Below are positions 27,046-29,923 of a stretch of 64,000 bases of DNA, piece after piece. Position 1 is the stretch's first letter. Each line of letters starts with the position of its first letter. Under the pieces are notes generated by a model, which saw only the letters and a program-made list of their open reading frames with translations, was not told where the DNA came from and made no database searches. This DNA is from an uncultured Clostridia bacterium (lineage in GTDB: Bacteria > Bacillota > Clostridia > Oscillospirales > Ruminococcaceae): NCBI GenBank assembly GCA_945876435.1, contig CAMCOD010000001.1, positions 19,372 to 83,371 of the forward strand, given 5' to 3'. The translations under genes and the position numbers were made by a program.

Positions 27046-27168
27046 GATTCCACCTCTTACCTTAGTATGGGCGGATTTTTCCTTCTTATCCCATGAGGCG
27101 TCCTCAAGAAAATGAAAAATCCCCAATCGGACGATCAGGGATTTTCCTTCATAACAATCTTACTGCAA

Positions 27169-27483
27169 CTATTTCAGAGCGTTCAGGCGTTCCAAATATT
27201 TTGCCTTGGGATAACCGCCCACCAGACGGTCCACCTCCTGGCCATCTTTGAAAAAGATCACAGTGGGAATACTCATTACCCGGAATTCCTTAGCCAGATC
27301 CCGGTTTTCATCCACGTTAACTTTTCCAATCTTAACCGAACCTTCCAGTTCCTGCCCCAGTTCCTCAATCACCGGGAGCAGTGCTTGGCAAGGCATACAC
27401 CAGGTTGCCCAGAAATCCACCATGGAAACCCCTTCTGCAGTCATGGTTTCAAAACTCTCTTTGTTCAGATGTGCGACAGACAT
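27169..27483 (-). CDS. trxA: thioredoxin
   Basis: VDFWATWCMPC, KVNVDEN, VMSIPT; ATG 27483 after AAGGAGG. Confidence 0.95.
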   Translation of the reverse strand: MSVAHLNKESFETMTAEGVSMVDFWATWCMPCQALLPVIEELGQELEGSVKIGKVNVDENRDLAKEFRVMSIPTVIFFKDGQEVDRLVGGYPKAKYLERLNALK

Positions 27484-27743
27484 GTGCAAACCTCCTTGAT
27501 TTTTGTATCATGGTCTATGAAAAAGCCGCTTTCGCACATTTTGTGCCAAACTCAGCCTCATAAACATGTAATAGAATACCCGTTTTCTTTGCTTACGCAG
27601 TTATTATATCATATTATCCATAATTATAAAGGTTTTTGTCTTAAAATCTTCCCACACTTTATATTATACCGAATAAGTATAGAATTGCAATCCTTTTGCT
27701 CATAATATTTGAAAAAAACTTTTGATTTATTGGAAAAAAGGTG

Positions 27744-27771
27744 TTGACATTTTTAAAAAAAGAGTTATAAT
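27744..27771 (+). promoter_or_regulatory. consensus sigma-A promoter of the tRNA pair
   Basis: TTGACA(27744-49)-16 bp-TATAAT(27766-71). Confidence 0.85.
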
Positions 27772-27802: not shown

Positions 27803-27876
27803 TGCCCGATTGTGTAAGGGTAGCACGACAGACTCTGACTCTGTTTGTCTGGGTTCAAATCCTAGTCGGGCAGCCA
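27803..27876 (+). tRNA. tRNA-Gln(CTG)
   Basis: Acceptor TGCCCGA/TCGGGCA, anticodon arm ACAGA-CT-CTG-AC-TCTGT, T-loop GGTTCAAATCC, encoded CCA. Confidence 0.95.
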
Positions 27877-27936
27877 CCATCAAAATCCCAATCCCTGTGA
27901 TTGGGATTTTGATTATCTGAAAAAAACAACTGGTAC

Positions 27937-28013
27937 CGGGGTATAGCGCAGTTTGGTAGCGCGCTTGGTTCGGGACTAAGAGGCCGCGGGTTCAAGTCCC
28001 GCTACTCCGACCA
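27937..28013 (+). tRNA. tRNA-Pro(CGG)
   Basis: Acceptor CGGGGTA/TACTCCG, anticodon arm CTTGG-TT-CGG-GA-CTAAG, GGTTCAAGTCC, encoded CCA; followed by terminator AAATAACCAGCATCT/AGATGCTGGTTATTT. Confidence 0.95.
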
Positions 28014-28161
28014 AATAACCAGCATCTTAACAGATGCTGGTTATTTTTTTGCCAGCGAAAAACTCATCTGTGCGAAACTTTTCTCCGCATCCCGCATGAT
28101 TTTTGTTTTTATGGGCAAGCTGTTTGTGCATTGTTCAGCAAAACAAAAACGAGGTGTCGTG

Positions 28162-28341
28162 ATGAACACAAACAAACTGCCTCTGGGTTTTGGCTTTGCG
28201 CTGGCCCAGAATCCGGAAGCTATGAAGGCATTCTCCAGCCTTACGGAAGCCCAGCAAGCTGAAATCCTTCAAAAAGCCCATGCTGTTTCGTCAAAGGATG
28301 AAATGCAGACCTTAGTGAACAGGCTGTCCGCGCAGGGATAA
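28162..28341 (+). CDS. small conserved-looking hypothetical protein (59 aa)
   Basis: RBS GAGGTG, ATG 28162; LPLGFGFALAQNPEAM...SKDEMQTLV; upstream GCATG-N15-GGCAAGCTG resembles a SigF/SigG promoter. Confidence 0.75.
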   Translation: MNTNKLPLGFGFALAQNPEAMKAFSSLTEAQQAEILQKAHAVSSKDEMQTLVNRLSAQG

Positions 28342-28386
28342 ACCCGCAGTGAGCAAGCAACCCGAAATCCATGGTAGGATTTACAT

Positions 28387-28415
28387 TTGCAAACTGCGTA
28401 CAATACCGCTATACT
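28387..28415 (+). promoter_or_regulatory. sigma-A-type promoter of the 21-aa peptide gene
   Basis: TTGCAA(28387-92)-17 bp-TATACT(28410-15). Confidence 0.65.
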
Positions 28416-28459
28416 TTTATTGTGCTCGCGAGACAAATCTATACCAGGAGGTCAGCAAG

Positions 28460-28525
28460 ATGTGTAAATTCAATTGCAACTTCATCTGGCAGATTCTCAG
28501 CCAGTTGTGCGGTTTTGGCTGCTAA
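28460..28525 (+). CDS. 21-aa cysteine-rich small peptide MCKFNCNFIWQILSQLCGFGC
   Basis: AGGAGG 28446-51, 8-nt spacer, ATG 28460, TAA 28523-25; own promoter and terminator; below the ORF-track size cutoff. Confidence 0.75.
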   Translation: MCKFNCNFIWQILSQLCGFGC

Positions 28526-28535
28526 TGCACAGTCC

Positions 28536-28568
28536 AAAGGCCCTGCTTACGCAGGGCCTTTTTCTTTT
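28536..28568 (+). terminator. intrinsic terminator after the 21-aa peptide
   Basis: AAAGGCCCTGC-TTAC-GCAGGGCCTTT then TTCTTTT. Confidence 0.85.
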
Positions 28569-28634
28569 GTTCCACTTTTTGCGACCAGGGAATGTTCCGC
28601 AAAGGAACGGACAAACTAACCGTGAGGTGATACA

Positions 28635-28826
28635 ATGCCCAAACAAGGAATGGCACGGCCCAACTGGACCCACAATCAACCCAGAAACGATGCTCCGCCG
28701 GTTCCTGCGATCCAGGGGAAGGCAAAACATGGGAAAAAACCGGCAAAACCCATCATCCTTGGAACCAGCGGTCCGGAACTGAAGGTATACCACCATCTGA
28801 AAGGTGACAATACCAGCAACTCCTGA
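28635..28826 (+). CDS. small basic Pro/Lys-rich hypothetical protein (63 aa)
   Basis: RBS GAGGTGA; upstream GAATG-N15-GACAAACTA resembles a forespore sigma promoter. Confidence 0.65.
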   Translation: MPKQGMARPNWTHNQPRNDAPPVPAIQGKAKHGKKPAKPIILGTSGPELKVYHHLKGDNTSNS

Positions 28827-29017: not shown

Positions 29018-29923
29018 ATGGAAAAGACGCAGGATTATGTCGTTTGCTCCTTGGAACTGCACCTGTTCTTTGCACGCATTATGAAGGAGCACTCTTTCTT
29101 TTTAAAAGTCGGCTTTCTTCCGCCCAACGAAGATCTTGCGGGACAAGGGGAACGCCTGATGCGAAATTTTGAACATTTGCTGTCCCGGGCGATTGCGCTC
29201 AGTAATCATGTCGTTTGCCAAAATGTACTGGACTCCGGAGAAATTGTTACCGAATTCACTGATTTGGCGGAGCGCCAAACCCAGCGCCTCAGCGGCACAT
29301 TCATTGACCGAAGGCTGACTGCCCGGGCCATGCAGCTAAAGGGCCGGGATTGCGGAACCGACTGGTCTGCGCCGCCTATGCTTACACGTCAGATTCAACA
29401 GCTGAACCGGGATGGACTCCAATTCTTGCAGCGTCTTATCGCCTTTAAGGAAGGTCTGCTGCAAAGAATCGGTTCCTGTAATCTCTTTACTTCCAATTAT
29501 CCCTTGCTGATTGAGCATATTCTGCGGGAAGCCCGCCTTTACCGCGCCCATCTTCTGCGGCTGGAGGGCATGGAAGATGGGAATAAGCAGGAACTCCGGG
29601 ACAGCGAACTGTTCTGGAATCAGATCATGATGGAACACGCCCTGTTCATTCGGGGACTGCTGGATCCCAGCGAAGATACGCTGATCCAAAGCGCCGATAA
29701 CTTTGCCGCAGAGTACAAACGGCTGCTGGCAGCCTCCTCAGCGGCCAACGACCGTATCATGCACAGCAAAAATGCCCTCGCCCTCACCGAAAAATTCCGG
29801 GATTTCAAACGGGCAGGTGTGGATGGCATTGAAAAATGCCAGATCCGCTCCATTATTCTCCCTCTGCTGGCTGACCATGTGCTTCGGGAAGCCAATCATT
29901 ATATCCGTTTGCTGGAAAGCTGA
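29018..29923 (+). CDS. DUF2935 domain protein (two internal repeats)
   Basis: Repeated LFF/W.RIM.EHS/ALF...G motif and EHI/DHVLREA.HY motif; strong RBS AGGAGGAGG, ATG 29018. Confidence 0.85.
   Translation: MEKTQDYVVCSLELHLFFARIMKEHSFFLKVGFLPPNEDLAGQGERLMRNFEHLLSRAIALSNHVVCQNVLDSGEIVTEFTDLAERQTQRLSGTFIDRRLTARAMQLKGRDCGTDWSAPPMLTRQIQQLNRDGLQFLQRLIAFKEGLLQRIGSCNLFTSNYPLLIEHILREARLYRAHLLRLEGMEDGNKQELRDSELFWNQIMMEHALFIRGLLDPSEDTLIQSADNFAAEYKRLLAASSAANDRIMHSKNALALTEKFRDFKRAGVDGIEKCQIRSIILPLLADHVLREANHYIRLLES

What the first reader, a model, noticed from the sequence alone, without database searches (positions are those of the whole stretch)
28387..28568. Stand-alone 21-aa four-cysteine peptide gene with a complete transcription unit
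Seen: TTGCAA-17-TATACT promoter, AGGAGG RBS at 8-nt spacing, ORF MCKFNCNFIWQILSQLCGFGC (28460-28525, pattern CxxxC-x10-CxxxC) and a strong intrinsic terminator immediately after. All four signals lining up in 180 bp is unlikely by chance, yet the ORF is too short for standard annotation. The central FIWQILSQL looks like an amphipathic helix. Inference: could be a metal/disulfide-binding membrane or spore-coat micropeptide, a type I toxin-like peptide, or a RiPP precursor modified in trans. No radical SAM maturase or transporter is adjacent.
Basis: partly seen in the sequence, partly recalled or inferred. Interest (0 to 1): 0.72.

Follow-up and report, generated by a model that had tools for sequence, protein, structure and literature searches.

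The report
Conserved unannotated cysteine-rich micropeptide gene
The 21-codon, four-cysteine reading frame is a real, conserved and so far unannotated small gene of gut Clostridia that normally sits in front of a secreted cell-wall/spore protein gene, but what the peptide does is still unknown.

Summary
Promoter, AGGAGG, ORF MCKFNCNFIWQILSQLCGFGC and terminator are all at the stated coordinates.

It is not chance. 21 related loci from gut and environmental metagenomes keep the start, the frame, the stop directly after ...GFGC, and at least 4 cysteines. Peptides are 21-29 aa.
- Codons not fixed by my search pattern give pS 0.51-0.68 against pN 0.14-0.22.
- The terminator stem shows compensatory changes.
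- No Pfam, NCBIfam or Rfam family matches. A 5.8-billion-protein database holds no relative, and the one literature search run, for exact C-terminal motif strings, found no paper.

"Stand-alone" is misleading. The promoter and 5'UTR form a conserved module carrying an exact WalR-type box, degenerate in the window. Elsewhere this module drives a secreted LysM-CAP protein (spore_YkwD family) followed by a p63 homologue. The peptide plus terminator is an optional insert between the 5'UTR and that gene. The window is such an operon with LysM-CAP missing.

No maturase, transporter or antisense promoter lies nearby, so the RiPP and type I toxin readings find no support.

Best reading: a translated, trans-acting cysteine-stripe micropeptide of a cell-envelope/sporulation operon. 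The main rival is a cis-acting leader peptide with an attenuator. Translation and function are untested.

The parts
28369..28447 (+). Conserved promoter + 5'UTR module shared by all family loci and by peptide-less LysM-CAP genes
   Evidence: An nhmmer profile built from the family hits window 28369-28447 (E 2.5e-16). It occurs once per locus in 24 loci and nowhere else in about 837 kb held.
28387..28415 (+). Sigma-A-type promoter TTGCAA-17-TATACT. Family consensus is TTG(C/A)AA-17-TACAAT.
28397..28413 (-). Degenerate copy of the direct repeat TGTAAC-N5-TGTAAC (WalR-type TGTWAH-N5-TGTWAH) that overlaps the spacer and -10 in all other family members
   Evidence: The exact box is present in 25 family loci, against 5 other hits in 837 kb. 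The consensus is taken from PMC9210968. The window reads CGTACA-ATACC-GCTATA on the top strand, 4/6 + 4/6.
28420..28436 (+). Imperfect palindrome TTGTGCTCGCGAGACAA at about +1 (family TTGTCTTCGCGAGACAA). It could be an operator, a 5'-terminal hairpin or an anti-SD element.
   Evidence: it is unique to this module in all loci. L110 has a perfect palindrome with both arms changed. Alifold pairs CYUC with the SD.
28446..28451 (+). Shine-Dalgarno AGGAGG, 8 nt before the ATG
   Evidence: GGAGG is conserved in all family members.
28460..28525 (+). 21-codon ORF MCKFNCNFIWQILSQLCGFGC + TAA
28536..28571 (+). Intrinsic terminator: 11-bp stem, 4-nt loop and T-run, starting 10 nt after the stop
   Evidence: In the family, 10 stem pairs show compensatory changes. 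The stop-to-stem distance is 7-14 nt across the family.
28635..28826 (+). p63, a 63-aa basic protein with no family match. It is the conserved distal gene of the operon and follows LysM-CAP in L101, L108 and L110.
   Evidence: No usable promoter lies between the terminator and its ATG: the only promoter-like match puts its -10 on the start codon.
28162..28341 (+). p59, a 59-aa protein with a sub-threshold OmdA match. It is the syntenic upstream neighbour, as in L108 and L022. No terminator separates it from the peptide promoter in the window.

Best explanation
The ORF is a genuine, translated small-protein gene. It belongs to an unannotated family of 21-29-aa cysteine-rich peptides in gut Oscillospiraceae-like Clostridia. 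The consensus is M-(C or FFF)-[C-N-x-D/N]1-3-C-S-x-(I/L/F)-W-(Q/E)-(I/L/V)-L-(S/C/R)-Q-(L/M/I)-(C/S/F)-G-(F/I)-G-C. It is the promoter-proximal cistron of a conserved operon: peptide, then a secreted LysM-CAP protein of the spore_YkwD family, then p63. The operon is driven by a conserved sigma-A promoter whose spacer and -10 carry an OmpR/WalR-type direct repeat. This points to a cell-envelope or sporulation regulon that is repressed while the regulator is bound (inferred). The strong terminator 7-14 nt after the stop would make the short peptide mRNA the main product and let only a fraction of transcripts read through (inferred). In the window LysM-CAP is missing, so the read-through target would be p63. 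The peptide itself most likely acts in trans as a short helix with a stripe of 4-6 thiols. That fits thiol-, metal- or redox-dependent association with the membrane/envelope or with the operon's other products. Shown: the signals, conservation of the ORF, protein-level purifying selection, the operon architecture and the optional nature of the insert. Inferred: translation, the regulator, read-through stoichiometry and the trans-acting thiol-dependent role.
For: Signals are at the stated coordinates. 21 homologous loci keep ATG, SD, frame and a stop directly after GFGC, with TAA and TGA alternating. ORF length changes are +3, +12 and +24 nt only, while the 5'UTR has 1-2-nt indels. At codons not fixed by the search pattern, pS/pN is 0.51/0.14 in the 21-aa class and 0.68/0.22 in the 29-aa class. 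Cys is kept at the free positions: C2 in 17/18 and C17 in 16/18, and both C17 losses have C14. L108 was found through LysM-CAP, not through the peptide. It has MCNFDCNFIWEILSQLCGFGC, a variant outside my pattern, with the ORF intact. Within the window's species, strain contigs about 5% divergent upstream show no listed difference in 28415-28511. The cassette is intact where the next gene is convergent (L012 histidine kinase, L088 GtrA, L090 VanW), so there it cannot serve a downstream gene. N-terminal growth is by C-N-x-D/N units, which keep i/i+4 Cys spacing, and the Cys residues fall on one helical face (p about 0.03). Operon evidence: the LysM-CAP RBS starts 5-15 nt after the terminator in 9 loci and again in L105, L108 and L109. 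LysM-CAP passes the TIGR02909 and TIGR02899 cut-offs. Window versus L108 colinearity is shown. The WalR-type box is exact in 25 loci. A 151-nt metatranscriptome contig identical to L084 spans peptide ORF, terminator and the LysM-CAP 5' end.
Against: There is no direct evidence of translation or of the peptide itself. The RNA evidence comes from assembled contigs that may include DNA. 17 of the homologues were fetched with a pattern that fixed C6, W10, Q11, Q15, G18, G20 and C21 and required T at the second position of five codons. Decayed copies would therefore have been missed, and invariance at those sites is partly by design. Amphipathicity is weak. No conserved partner explains a trans role. 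The peptide and terminator have been lost in many lineages: 5 of the 8 distinct arrangements found through LysM-CAP lack them. An sORF, then a terminator, then a promoter-less gene is also what an attenuator looks like. Some synonymous sites never vary (CAG x2, GGC-TGC before the stop), which hints at an added RNA-level constraint. The window's own copy lacks the exact WalR-type box.
Confidence: 0.45

Rival explanations
1. Cis-acting leader peptide plus attenuator. Translation of the short ORF governs the terminator that begins 7-14 nt after its stop. A ribosome at or near the stop codon would cover the 5' arm of the stem and allow read-through into LysM-CAP (or p63 in the window). A lagging or absent ribosome would allow termination. 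The conserved C-terminal 13 residues could act as a nascent-chain arrest or sensing motif, as in TnaC. Alternatively the Cys/Asn/Phe codons could sense tRNA charging.
For: The sORF lies between a conserved promoter/5'UTR and a gene with an RBS but no room for its own promoter in 12 or more loci. The stop-to-stem distance is narrow, 7-14 nt. The conserved part is C-terminal at a fixed distance from the stop, with W 11 residues before the last codon, while the N-terminus varies in length. Where the ORF is lost, the terminator is lost too (L100, L101, L110) or keeps its hairpin without the T-run (L098 type). The same cassette precedes a different secreted wall-binding protein (SH3_3) in L092.
Against: No alternative antiterminator pairing was found, and the 5' arm of the terminator varies while the ORF does not. 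Intact cassettes precede convergent genes in L012, L088 and L090. The N-terminal part is also constrained (Cys at position 2, C-N-x-D/N units), which an exit-tunnel motif would not need. The Cys codons are not consecutive, and the regulated gene has no link to cysteine supply. From general knowledge, transcription and translation are largely uncoupled in Bacillus subtilis, which disfavours ribosome-occlusion attenuation in Firmicutes.
Confidence: 0.27
2. Precursor of a modified or exported peptide, such as a RiPP with thioether or other Cys-based crosslinks, or a pheromone. Its maturase and exporter would be encoded elsewhere in the genome.
For: The peptides are cysteine-rich with repeated C-N-T-D units and an invariant C-terminal Cys. 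The terminator after a small structural gene resembles bacteriocin operons (general knowledge).
Against: No radical SAM enzyme, cyclodehydratase, LanB/C/M, HFCD decarboxylase, C39 protease or dedicated ABC exporter lies next to the gene in about 25 loci with varied contexts. There is no leader/core division: 21 aa is too short for a recognisable leader. The net charge is neutral or negative.
Confidence: 0.08
3. The ORF is incidental. The conserved 110-130 nt between promoter and terminator would be a structured cis-regulatory RNA or small RNA (riboswitch-like leader with a terminator as expression platform).
For: The layout of promoter, conserved leader, terminator, RBS and gene is typical of Firmicute riboswitches. 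Several synonymous sites are invariant, and small hairpins are predicted inside the ORF: CUGGC/GCCAG, and GCGGY-UUCG-GCUGC. The fold z-score is -2.7.
Against: No Rfam family matches, even at E up to 10. The ORF-internal stems show no compensatory changes, whereas the terminator shows 10. A strong SD with ATG at fixed spacing, an in-frame stop at the exact end of conservation in all copies, TAA/TGA alternation, and pS well above pN at free codons all point to coding.
Confidence: 0.07
4. Type I toxin: a small membrane-damaging peptide kept silent by an antisense RNA.
For: It is a tiny, moderately hydrophobic peptide (GRAVY 0.4-1.2) with a conserved 5'UTR that can pair with its own SD.
Against: No promoter-like site is found on the opposite strand within or just beyond the unit. 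Sequence beyond the terminator is not conserved, so there is no conserved antisense gene. There is no 18-20-residue hydrophobic span. The gene is single-copy in each locus and forms an operon with ordinary secreted and small proteins.
Confidence: 0.03

Closest known systems
Small regulon-encoded peptides such as MgrB (PhoPQ regulon, E. coli) and other small proteins that act at the membrane
   Same: It is a tiny gene with its own promoter carrying a response-regulator-type direct repeat. It has functionally suggestive conserved cysteines and was missed by annotation.
   Different: MgrB is 47 aa with a clear transmembrane helix and periplasmic cysteines. This peptide is 21-29 aa with no transmembrane span, and no kinase partner is identified. 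The regulator link rests only on a sequence motif.
Leader peptides with terminators: TnaC, PheL, Tn916 orf12, polycysteine sORFs of mycobacteria (recalled from general knowledge)
   Same: A short ORF lies between the promoter and a promoter-less gene, with a terminator right after the stop. The conserved C-terminal part is at a fixed distance from the stop, and one amino acid is enriched.
   Different: No antiterminator was found. The Cys codons are dispersed, not consecutive. The whole peptide is under protein-level constraint. Intact copies exist with no downstream co-oriented gene. The downstream genes are wall-binding or spore proteins, not amino-acid pathway genes.
Phenol-soluble modulins / delta-toxin of staphylococci
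   Same: They are about 20-26 aa with no signal peptide, were long unannotated, and their promoters are controlled by a response regulator.
   Different: PSMs are strongly amphipathic and lack cysteine. Here the hydrophobic moment is modest and cysteines dominate. The taxon is unrelated.
Twin CX3C / alpha-hairpinin-type peptides (small Tims, plant hairpinins, kappa-hefutoxin)
   Same: The window peptide has CX3C-X10-CX3C.
   Different: In the family the second pair is not fixed: C17 can be S or F with C14 present, and up to six Cys occur. The linker has no turn. There is no export signal, and the host is an anaerobe with a reducing cytoplasm. The resemblance is likely superficial.
WalR (YycF) regulon genes of Firmicutes
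   Same: An exact TGTWAH-N5-TGTWAH box sits in the promoter of an operon whose main product is a secreted LysM protein. Secreted peptidoglycan-acting proteins are typical WalR regulon members (PMC9210968).
   Different: The box overlaps the -10 on the opposite strand, so it would repress. Other OmpR-family regulators bind similar repeats. No binding data exist, and the window's copy is degenerate.

Membership tests
Type I toxin-antitoxin | Overlapping or adjacent antisense RNA gene with its own promoter | tested here: not met
   No promoter-like site on the minus strand between 28300 and 28700. The flanks beyond the terminator are not conserved among loci.
Type I toxin-antitoxin | Hydrophobic peptide able to span the membrane | tested here: inconclusive
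   GRAVY is 0.4-1.2, but polar N/Q/S/D residues are interspersed and there is no 18-20-residue hydrophobic run.
RiPP precursor (ranthipeptide, sactipeptide, lanthipeptide etc.) | Maturase (radical SAM, LanB/C/M, YcaO, HFCD) and protease/exporter encoded nearby | tested here: not met
   Neighbours in about 25 loci are DUF2935, FAD/Rieske oxidoreductase, LysM-CAP, SH3_3, GT2, GtrA, VanW, VanY, HK/RR, DtxR-type, MarR and others. None is a maturase.
RiPP precursor | Leader (or follower) plus core architecture | tested here: inconclusive
   The N-terminal Cys-repeat region is variable and the C-terminal 13 aa are conserved, which could be read as core plus follower. At 21 aa in total this is very short.
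Leader-peptide transcription attenuator | sORF and intrinsic terminator between the promoter and a gene lacking its own promoter | tested here: met
   Seen in L082-84, L086, L087, L089, L091-94, L105, L108 and L109. In the window, p63 lies 110 nt downstream without a usable promoter.
Leader-peptide transcription attenuator | Alternative antiterminator structure, or another way for the ribosome to affect the terminator | tested here: inconclusive
   The consensus fold contains no antiterminator. The stop-to-stem distance of 7-14 nt would allow direct occlusion by a terminating ribosome.
Leader-peptide transcription attenuator | Always followed by a co-oriented regulated gene | tested here: not met
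   The next gene is convergent in L012 (histidine kinase), L088 (GtrA) and L090 (VanW).
Known RNA families (Rfam 15) | Covariance-model match at or near the gathering score | tested here: not met
   Only the two tRNAs pass. The best other hit (SorY) scores 28 bits against a threshold of 111 and covers the terminator.
Known protein families (Pfam, NCBIfam) | Profile match | tested here: not met
   NCBIfam gives no hit for the peptide at E up to 1. No protein in the 5.8-billion set shares words with the extended ORF.
WalR-type (OmpR-family) regulon promoter | Direct repeat TGTWAH-N5-TGTWAH in the promoter | tested here: met
   Exact in 25 family loci, with 5 other hits in 837 kb. The consensus is from PMC9210968. 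The window's own copy does not meet it (4/6 + 4/6).
WalR-type (OmpR-family) regulon promoter | Binding and control by the regulator | not testable with these tools
   Needs EMSA, ChIP or reporter assays.
Twin CX3C / alpha-hairpinin fold | Two conserved CX3C pairs on antiparallel helices joined by two disulfides | tested here: not met
   The second pair is not conserved (C17 to S or F in L084 and L012; C14 optional). The N-terminal pair is multiplied in the longer members.

The most novel reading that the evidence does not exclude
The peptide-plus-terminator insert is a new kind of translation-dependent gate. A conserved cysteine-rich nascent or released peptide would sense thiol, redox or metal status. 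It would set how much RNA polymerase reads through into a sporulation/cell-wall operon (LysM-CAP/YkwD and p63), while also acting as a thiol-stripe micropeptide in trans. This would be a dual cis/trans small protein not described in Clostridia.
Probability: 0.12. Interest if true: 0.8.

Novelty: new variant of a known kind. Interest (0 to 1): 0.5.

Why it matters
Small proteins under 30 aa are systematically missing from genome annotation. This one is absent from Pfam and NCBIfam, from a 5.8-billion-protein collection, and from the one literature search run (exact C-terminal motif strings), yet it is conserved across many uncultured gut Clostridia. It sits at the head of an operon for a YkwD-family protein, a family restricted to endospore formers whose function is unknown. 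It may therefore give a handle on that operon's regulation (WalR-type box, optional terminator gate) and on thiol- or metal-dependent micropeptides in strict anaerobes. It is also a clean case for testing whether a conserved sORF with a terminator works in cis, in trans or both.

Tried and rejected
- The 58-aa in-frame extension found nothing in the protein database.
- Rfam found nothing relevant at gathering or at E up to 10.
- Synteny through DUF2935 (80 genomes) gave only one homologue, L012. DUF2935 is therefore a frequent neighbour, not an obligate partner.
- Three viral-contig scans gave nothing or chance matches.
- Searching the window and loci for further copies of the palindrome or the repeat, to define a regulon, found none.
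- Matching the promoter to sigma-E/K/F/G/H, Spo0A, CcpA, Rex, CopY, CtsR and SpoIIID consensus sequences from memory gave no convincing fit. Only the WalR-type repeat fitted exactly.
- RNA evidence: only assembled contigs were available. In the window species depth is similar on both sides of the terminator in one run and drops fourfold in another, and contigs extend upstream of the promoter, so DNA carry-over cannot be excluded.
- A Cys14/Cys17 compensation test is suggestive but not significant, with only two independent cases.
- The script machine was lost before a final tabulation of LysM-CAP, p63 and p59 across all loci. The architecture statements rest.

Full report
**1. The observation**

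The sequence shows the following:
- TTGCAA (28387-92), a 17-nt spacer, and TATACT (28410-15).
- AGGAGG (28446-51), 8 nt before the ATG at 28460.
- The ORF MCKFNCNFIWQILSQLCGFGC with TAA at 28523-25.
- An 11-bp, G+C-rich hairpin (28536-61) followed by TTTTTCTTTT.

The finding is accurate as written. Rfam matches only the two upstream tRNAs: Gln at 27803-76 and Pro at 27937-28013. Pfam and NCBIfam give nothing for the peptide.

Neighbours on the same strand:
- p59 (28162-28341, sub-threshold OmdA match)
- p63 (28635-28826, no family)
- DUF2935 (29018-29923)
- an FAD/Rieske oxidoreductase, a GNAT and a NUDIX protein

The DNA is found in pig-gut and other gut metagenomes. The closest genomes by DUF2935 are uncultured Oscillospiraceae/Clostridia, at 74% identity or less.

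**2. Is it more than chance? Homologues**

The peptide tools refuse queries under 40 aa, so I worked through DNA.

- *Genome scan through DUF2935.* 80 loci were fetched and one had a homologue. This is L012, MCNFDCSQIWQILCQLFGFGC. It lies downstream of DUF2935 rather than upstream. Its promoter and 5'UTR are about 80% identical to the window's, it has its own terminator, and a convergent histidine-kinase gene follows.
- *Metagenome scan.* I used a degenerate pattern covering codons 6-21. It left the start, codons 1-5, 7, 8, 14 and 17, and the stop unspecified. It returned 17 loci. All 17 have GGAGG, an in-frame ATG, and a stop codon immediately after ...GFGC (TAA in 13 and TGA in 6 of the 19 loci aligned, window and L012 included).
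- *Peptide lengths.* They are 21, 22, 25 or 29 aa. The extra residues are N-terminal: MFFF plus one or two added C-N-(T/S)-(D/N/G/S) units.
- *Indels.* Those inside the ORF are +3, +12 and +24 nt. The 5'UTR alignment contains 1-, 2- and 4-nt gaps.

*Bias warning.* C6, W10, Q11, Q15, G18, G20, C21 and the middle T of five hydrophobic codons were imposed by the pattern. Their constancy proves little, and decayed copies could not be found this way.

The evidence that does not depend on the pattern is as follows:
- At the free codons, pS is 0.51 against pN 0.14 (21-aa class) and 0.68 against 0.22 (29-aa class).
- The close pair L095/L096 differ at five synonymous third positions and two replacement sites in the N-terminal region (sequences).
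- Cys is kept at the free position 2 in 17/18 distinct peptides and at position 17 in 16/18. The two without C17 both have C14.
- Three loci were reached through the neighbouring LysM-CAP protein, not the peptide, and carry intact ORFs. One of them, L108 (MCNFDCNFIWEILSQLCGFGC), breaks my pattern at Q11.
- Within the window's own species, strain contigs that differ at about 20 listed sites between 28089 and 28414 show none between 28415 and 28511.
- The terminator stem has 10 pairs with compensatory double changes across loci.

I conclude that the ORF is a conserved coding gene, with confidence about 0.85. The extended ORF finds no relative in the 5.8-billion-protein collection. A search of the paper library for four exact C-terminal motif strings of the family found no paper.

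**3. What the unit belongs to**

*The downstream gene.* In 9 of the 17 metagenome loci, an RBS and ATGAAAAAA start 5-15 nt after the terminator's T-run. The gene encodes a protein of about 201 aa with a signal peptide, a LysM domain and a CAP domain. It passes the NCBIfam cut-offs for TIGR02909 (spore_YkwD, 183 against 171 bits) and TIGR02899 (SafA-type LysM). NCBI records name it 'SafA/ExsA family spore coat assembly protein'. L092 has a secreted SH3_3 protein in the same position.

*Sampling LysM-CAP homologues.* I looked up eleven homologues by exact sequence, a sample that is blind to the peptide. All of them carry the same promoter/5'UTR module (nhmmer). They fall into these groups:
- With peptide and terminator: L105, L108, L109.
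- Without them, the 5'UTR runs straight into the LysM-CAP SD: L100/L104, L101/L102, L110.
- L101 is syntenic with L086/L109, which do have the insert. The junction lies at the repeated AGGAGGT.
- L098/99/103/106/107 have lost the ORF but keep the hairpin without its T-run.

So the peptide plus terminator is an optional insert between a conserved 5'UTR and LysM-CAP. It has been removed (or gained) in at least two different ways.

*The window's own arrangement.* A p63 homologue follows LysM-CAP in L101, L108 and L110. L108 reads p59, peptide, LysM-CAP, p63, then SodC and the FAD/Rieske gene. The window aligns to it over three segments and lacks LysM-CAP in between:
- p59
- the promoter/5'UTR module plus peptide (81% identity)
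- p63 with its RBS

The window's 'stand-alone' unit is therefore the head of this operon with the middle gene missing. p63 has no usable promoter of its own, because the only promoter-like match puts its -10 on the start codon.

**4. Regulatory module**

The conserved elements, in order, are:
- ATTTACA-TTTG(C/A)AAAATAGTTACAAAnCGGTTACAAT
- 5-6 nt
- TTGTCYTCGCGAGRCAAATAC
- GGAGG, then ATG

On the opposite strand the spacer and -10 read TGTAAC-N5-TGTAAC. This is an exact match to the WalR consensus TGTWAH-N5-TGTWAH (PMC9210968). It is present in 25 family loci, against 5 other hits in 837 kb of held sequence. A repeat overlapping the -10 suggests repression by an OmpR-family regulator. WalR is the best-fitting candidate, since WalR regulons characteristically include proteins that act on the cell envelope, especially peptidoglycan hydrolases (PMC9210968). 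This is inference only. The window's own copy is degenerate at this site.

The palindrome at about +1 is unique to the module. L110 has a perfect version with both arms changed. The consensus fold instead pairs CYUC with the SD. Operator, 5' hairpin and anti-SD element cannot be told apart with these tools.

**5. How it most likely works**

*Best reading (0.45).* The gene makes a translated micropeptide, the first cistron of a cell-envelope/sporulation operon. Its terminator would make the peptide mRNA the main product and meter read-through into LysM-CAP and p63. A 151-nt metatranscriptome contig identical to L084 spans the ORF, the terminator and the LysM-CAP 5' end, which is consistent with read-through, though this evidence is weak.

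The peptide is moderately hydrophobic (GRAVY 0.4-1.2) with net charge -2 to +1. It carries 4-6 Cys at i/i+4 or i+3 spacing, which fall on one helical face (p about 0.03). Its overall hydrophobic moment is unremarkable. A thiol-, metal- or redox-dependent role at the membrane or envelope is the most economical guess.

Three points favour a role in trans:
- The whole peptide is under constraint, including the N-terminal Cys units.
- Intact cassettes sit in front of convergent genes in L012, L088 and L090.
- The cassette is retained in the window without LysM-CAP.

*Main rival (0.27).* A cis-acting leader peptide with an attenuator. In its favour:
- The layout is that of an attenuator.
- The stop-to-stem distance is 7-14 nt.
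- The conserved part is C-terminal at a fixed distance from the stop.
- Loss of the ORF goes with loss of terminator function.

Against it:
- No antiterminator was found.
- Some cassettes precede convergent genes.
- The N-terminus is constrained too.

The two readings are not exclusive.

*Lesser rivals.*
- RiPP or pheromone matured in trans (0.08): no maturase or exporter in about 25 contexts.
- Structured RNA with an incidental ORF (0.07): no Rfam match and no covariation inside the ORF, but some invariant synonymous sites and a UUCG hairpin encoded by C-G-F-G-C.
- Type I toxin (0.03): no antisense promoter.

**6. Comparison and novelty**

It works most like small regulon-encoded peptides (MgrB-type), or alternatively like leader peptides of attenuators. 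It is a member of no described family: every tested database was negative. The CX3C-X10-CX3C resemblance to twin-CX3C or hairpinin peptides fails because the second pair is not conserved.

I rate it a new variant of a known kind, namely an unannotated small protein or upstream ORF. It has an unusual, evolutionarily optional 'ORF plus terminator' insert in a YkwD operon.

Interest is 0.5. The gene is real, conserved and unannotated, and it sets up a clean cis-versus-trans question. Its function is unknown, and nothing here overturns current understanding.

Noticed in passing
window 28635-28826; L101:6677-6847; L108:3175-3375; L110:3155-3355: p63 is a conserved 56-66-aa basic protein (GMARPxWTHxxPxNxxPPVPxxQGKAK...PIIxGTxGPxxKVYH) with no Pfam or NCBIfam match. 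It follows LysM-CAP in three independent loci and follows p59 directly in L022. It looks like another unannotated-function small protein family of the same operon.
   Followed up: partly
window 28527-28607 versus L108:2443-3147: Compared with the colinear L108 locus, the window lacks the whole LysM-CAP (spore_YkwD) gene between the peptide terminator and p63. No LysM-CAP is found anywhere in the 64-kb window (tblastn).
   Followed up: yes
L098/L099/L103/L106/L107, about 60-90 nt upstream of LysM-CAP: This looks like a relic of the cassette. The 5'UTR is followed by a GGCGG(C/T)CCCCGC...GTGGGGGGCCGC hairpin without a T-run and without the ORF. A divergent DtxR-family regulator, a cupin, an FAD/Rieske oxidoreductase and a 1226-aa multicopper oxidase lie upstream, and spoIVFA/spoIVFB-like M23 and M50 genes lie downstream.
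   Followed up: partly
L110:2440-2470: The +1 palindrome is a perfect 18-mer GTATCTTCGCGAAGATAC, with both arms changed relative to TTGTCTTCGCGAGACAA. This is the only compensatory evidence that the palindrome itself is selected.
   Followed up: no
family ORFs, codons 11, 15, 20, 21 (window 28490-92, 28502-04, 28517-22): Synonymous sites that the search pattern left free never vary: CAG, CAG and GGC-TGC in 18 distinct sequences, while G18, C2 and C17 vary freely. C-G-F-G-C encodes a GCGGY-UUCG-GCUGC hairpin just before the stop. This may be an added RNA-level or termination-context constraint.
   Followed up: partly
L085, L087, L092-L097 (N-terminal part of the ORF): The N-terminus grows by 12-nt units (TGCAAC-ACC-GAT type, C-N-T-D) after an MFFF start, giving 25- and 29-aa forms with up to six cysteines.
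   Followed up: partly
window 27744-27771 and 27803-28013: A perfect TTGACA-16-TATAAT promoter lies just upstream of tRNA-Gln(CTG) and tRNA-Pro(CGG). A terminator-like hairpin at about 28020-28047 follows tRNA-Pro. The 197-aa ORF at 27112-27705 has no family match and is probably not a gene.
   Followed up: no
window 28341-28387: No terminator separates p59 from the peptide promoter in the window, whereas L108 has one there. Transcripts from p59 may therefore run into the peptide gene. This may explain why the metatranscriptome contigs run continuously from the tRNAs to 28511 or 28518.
   Followed up: partly
L012, L082/L105, window, L015, L022, L073, L098, L108: One neighbourhood recurs around the cassette in different orders: DUF2935, FAD/Rieske oxidoreductase, p59, p63, and in some loci Cu/Zn superoxide dismutase and a multicopper oxidase. 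This gives a redox/copper and possibly spore-coat flavour, which might bear on a thiol-rich peptide.
   Followed up: no
L089:1358-1807: The LysM-CAP gene downstream of the peptide appears frameshifted or truncated (149 aa with an aberrant tail). It is either a pseudogene or an assembly error.
   Followed up: no
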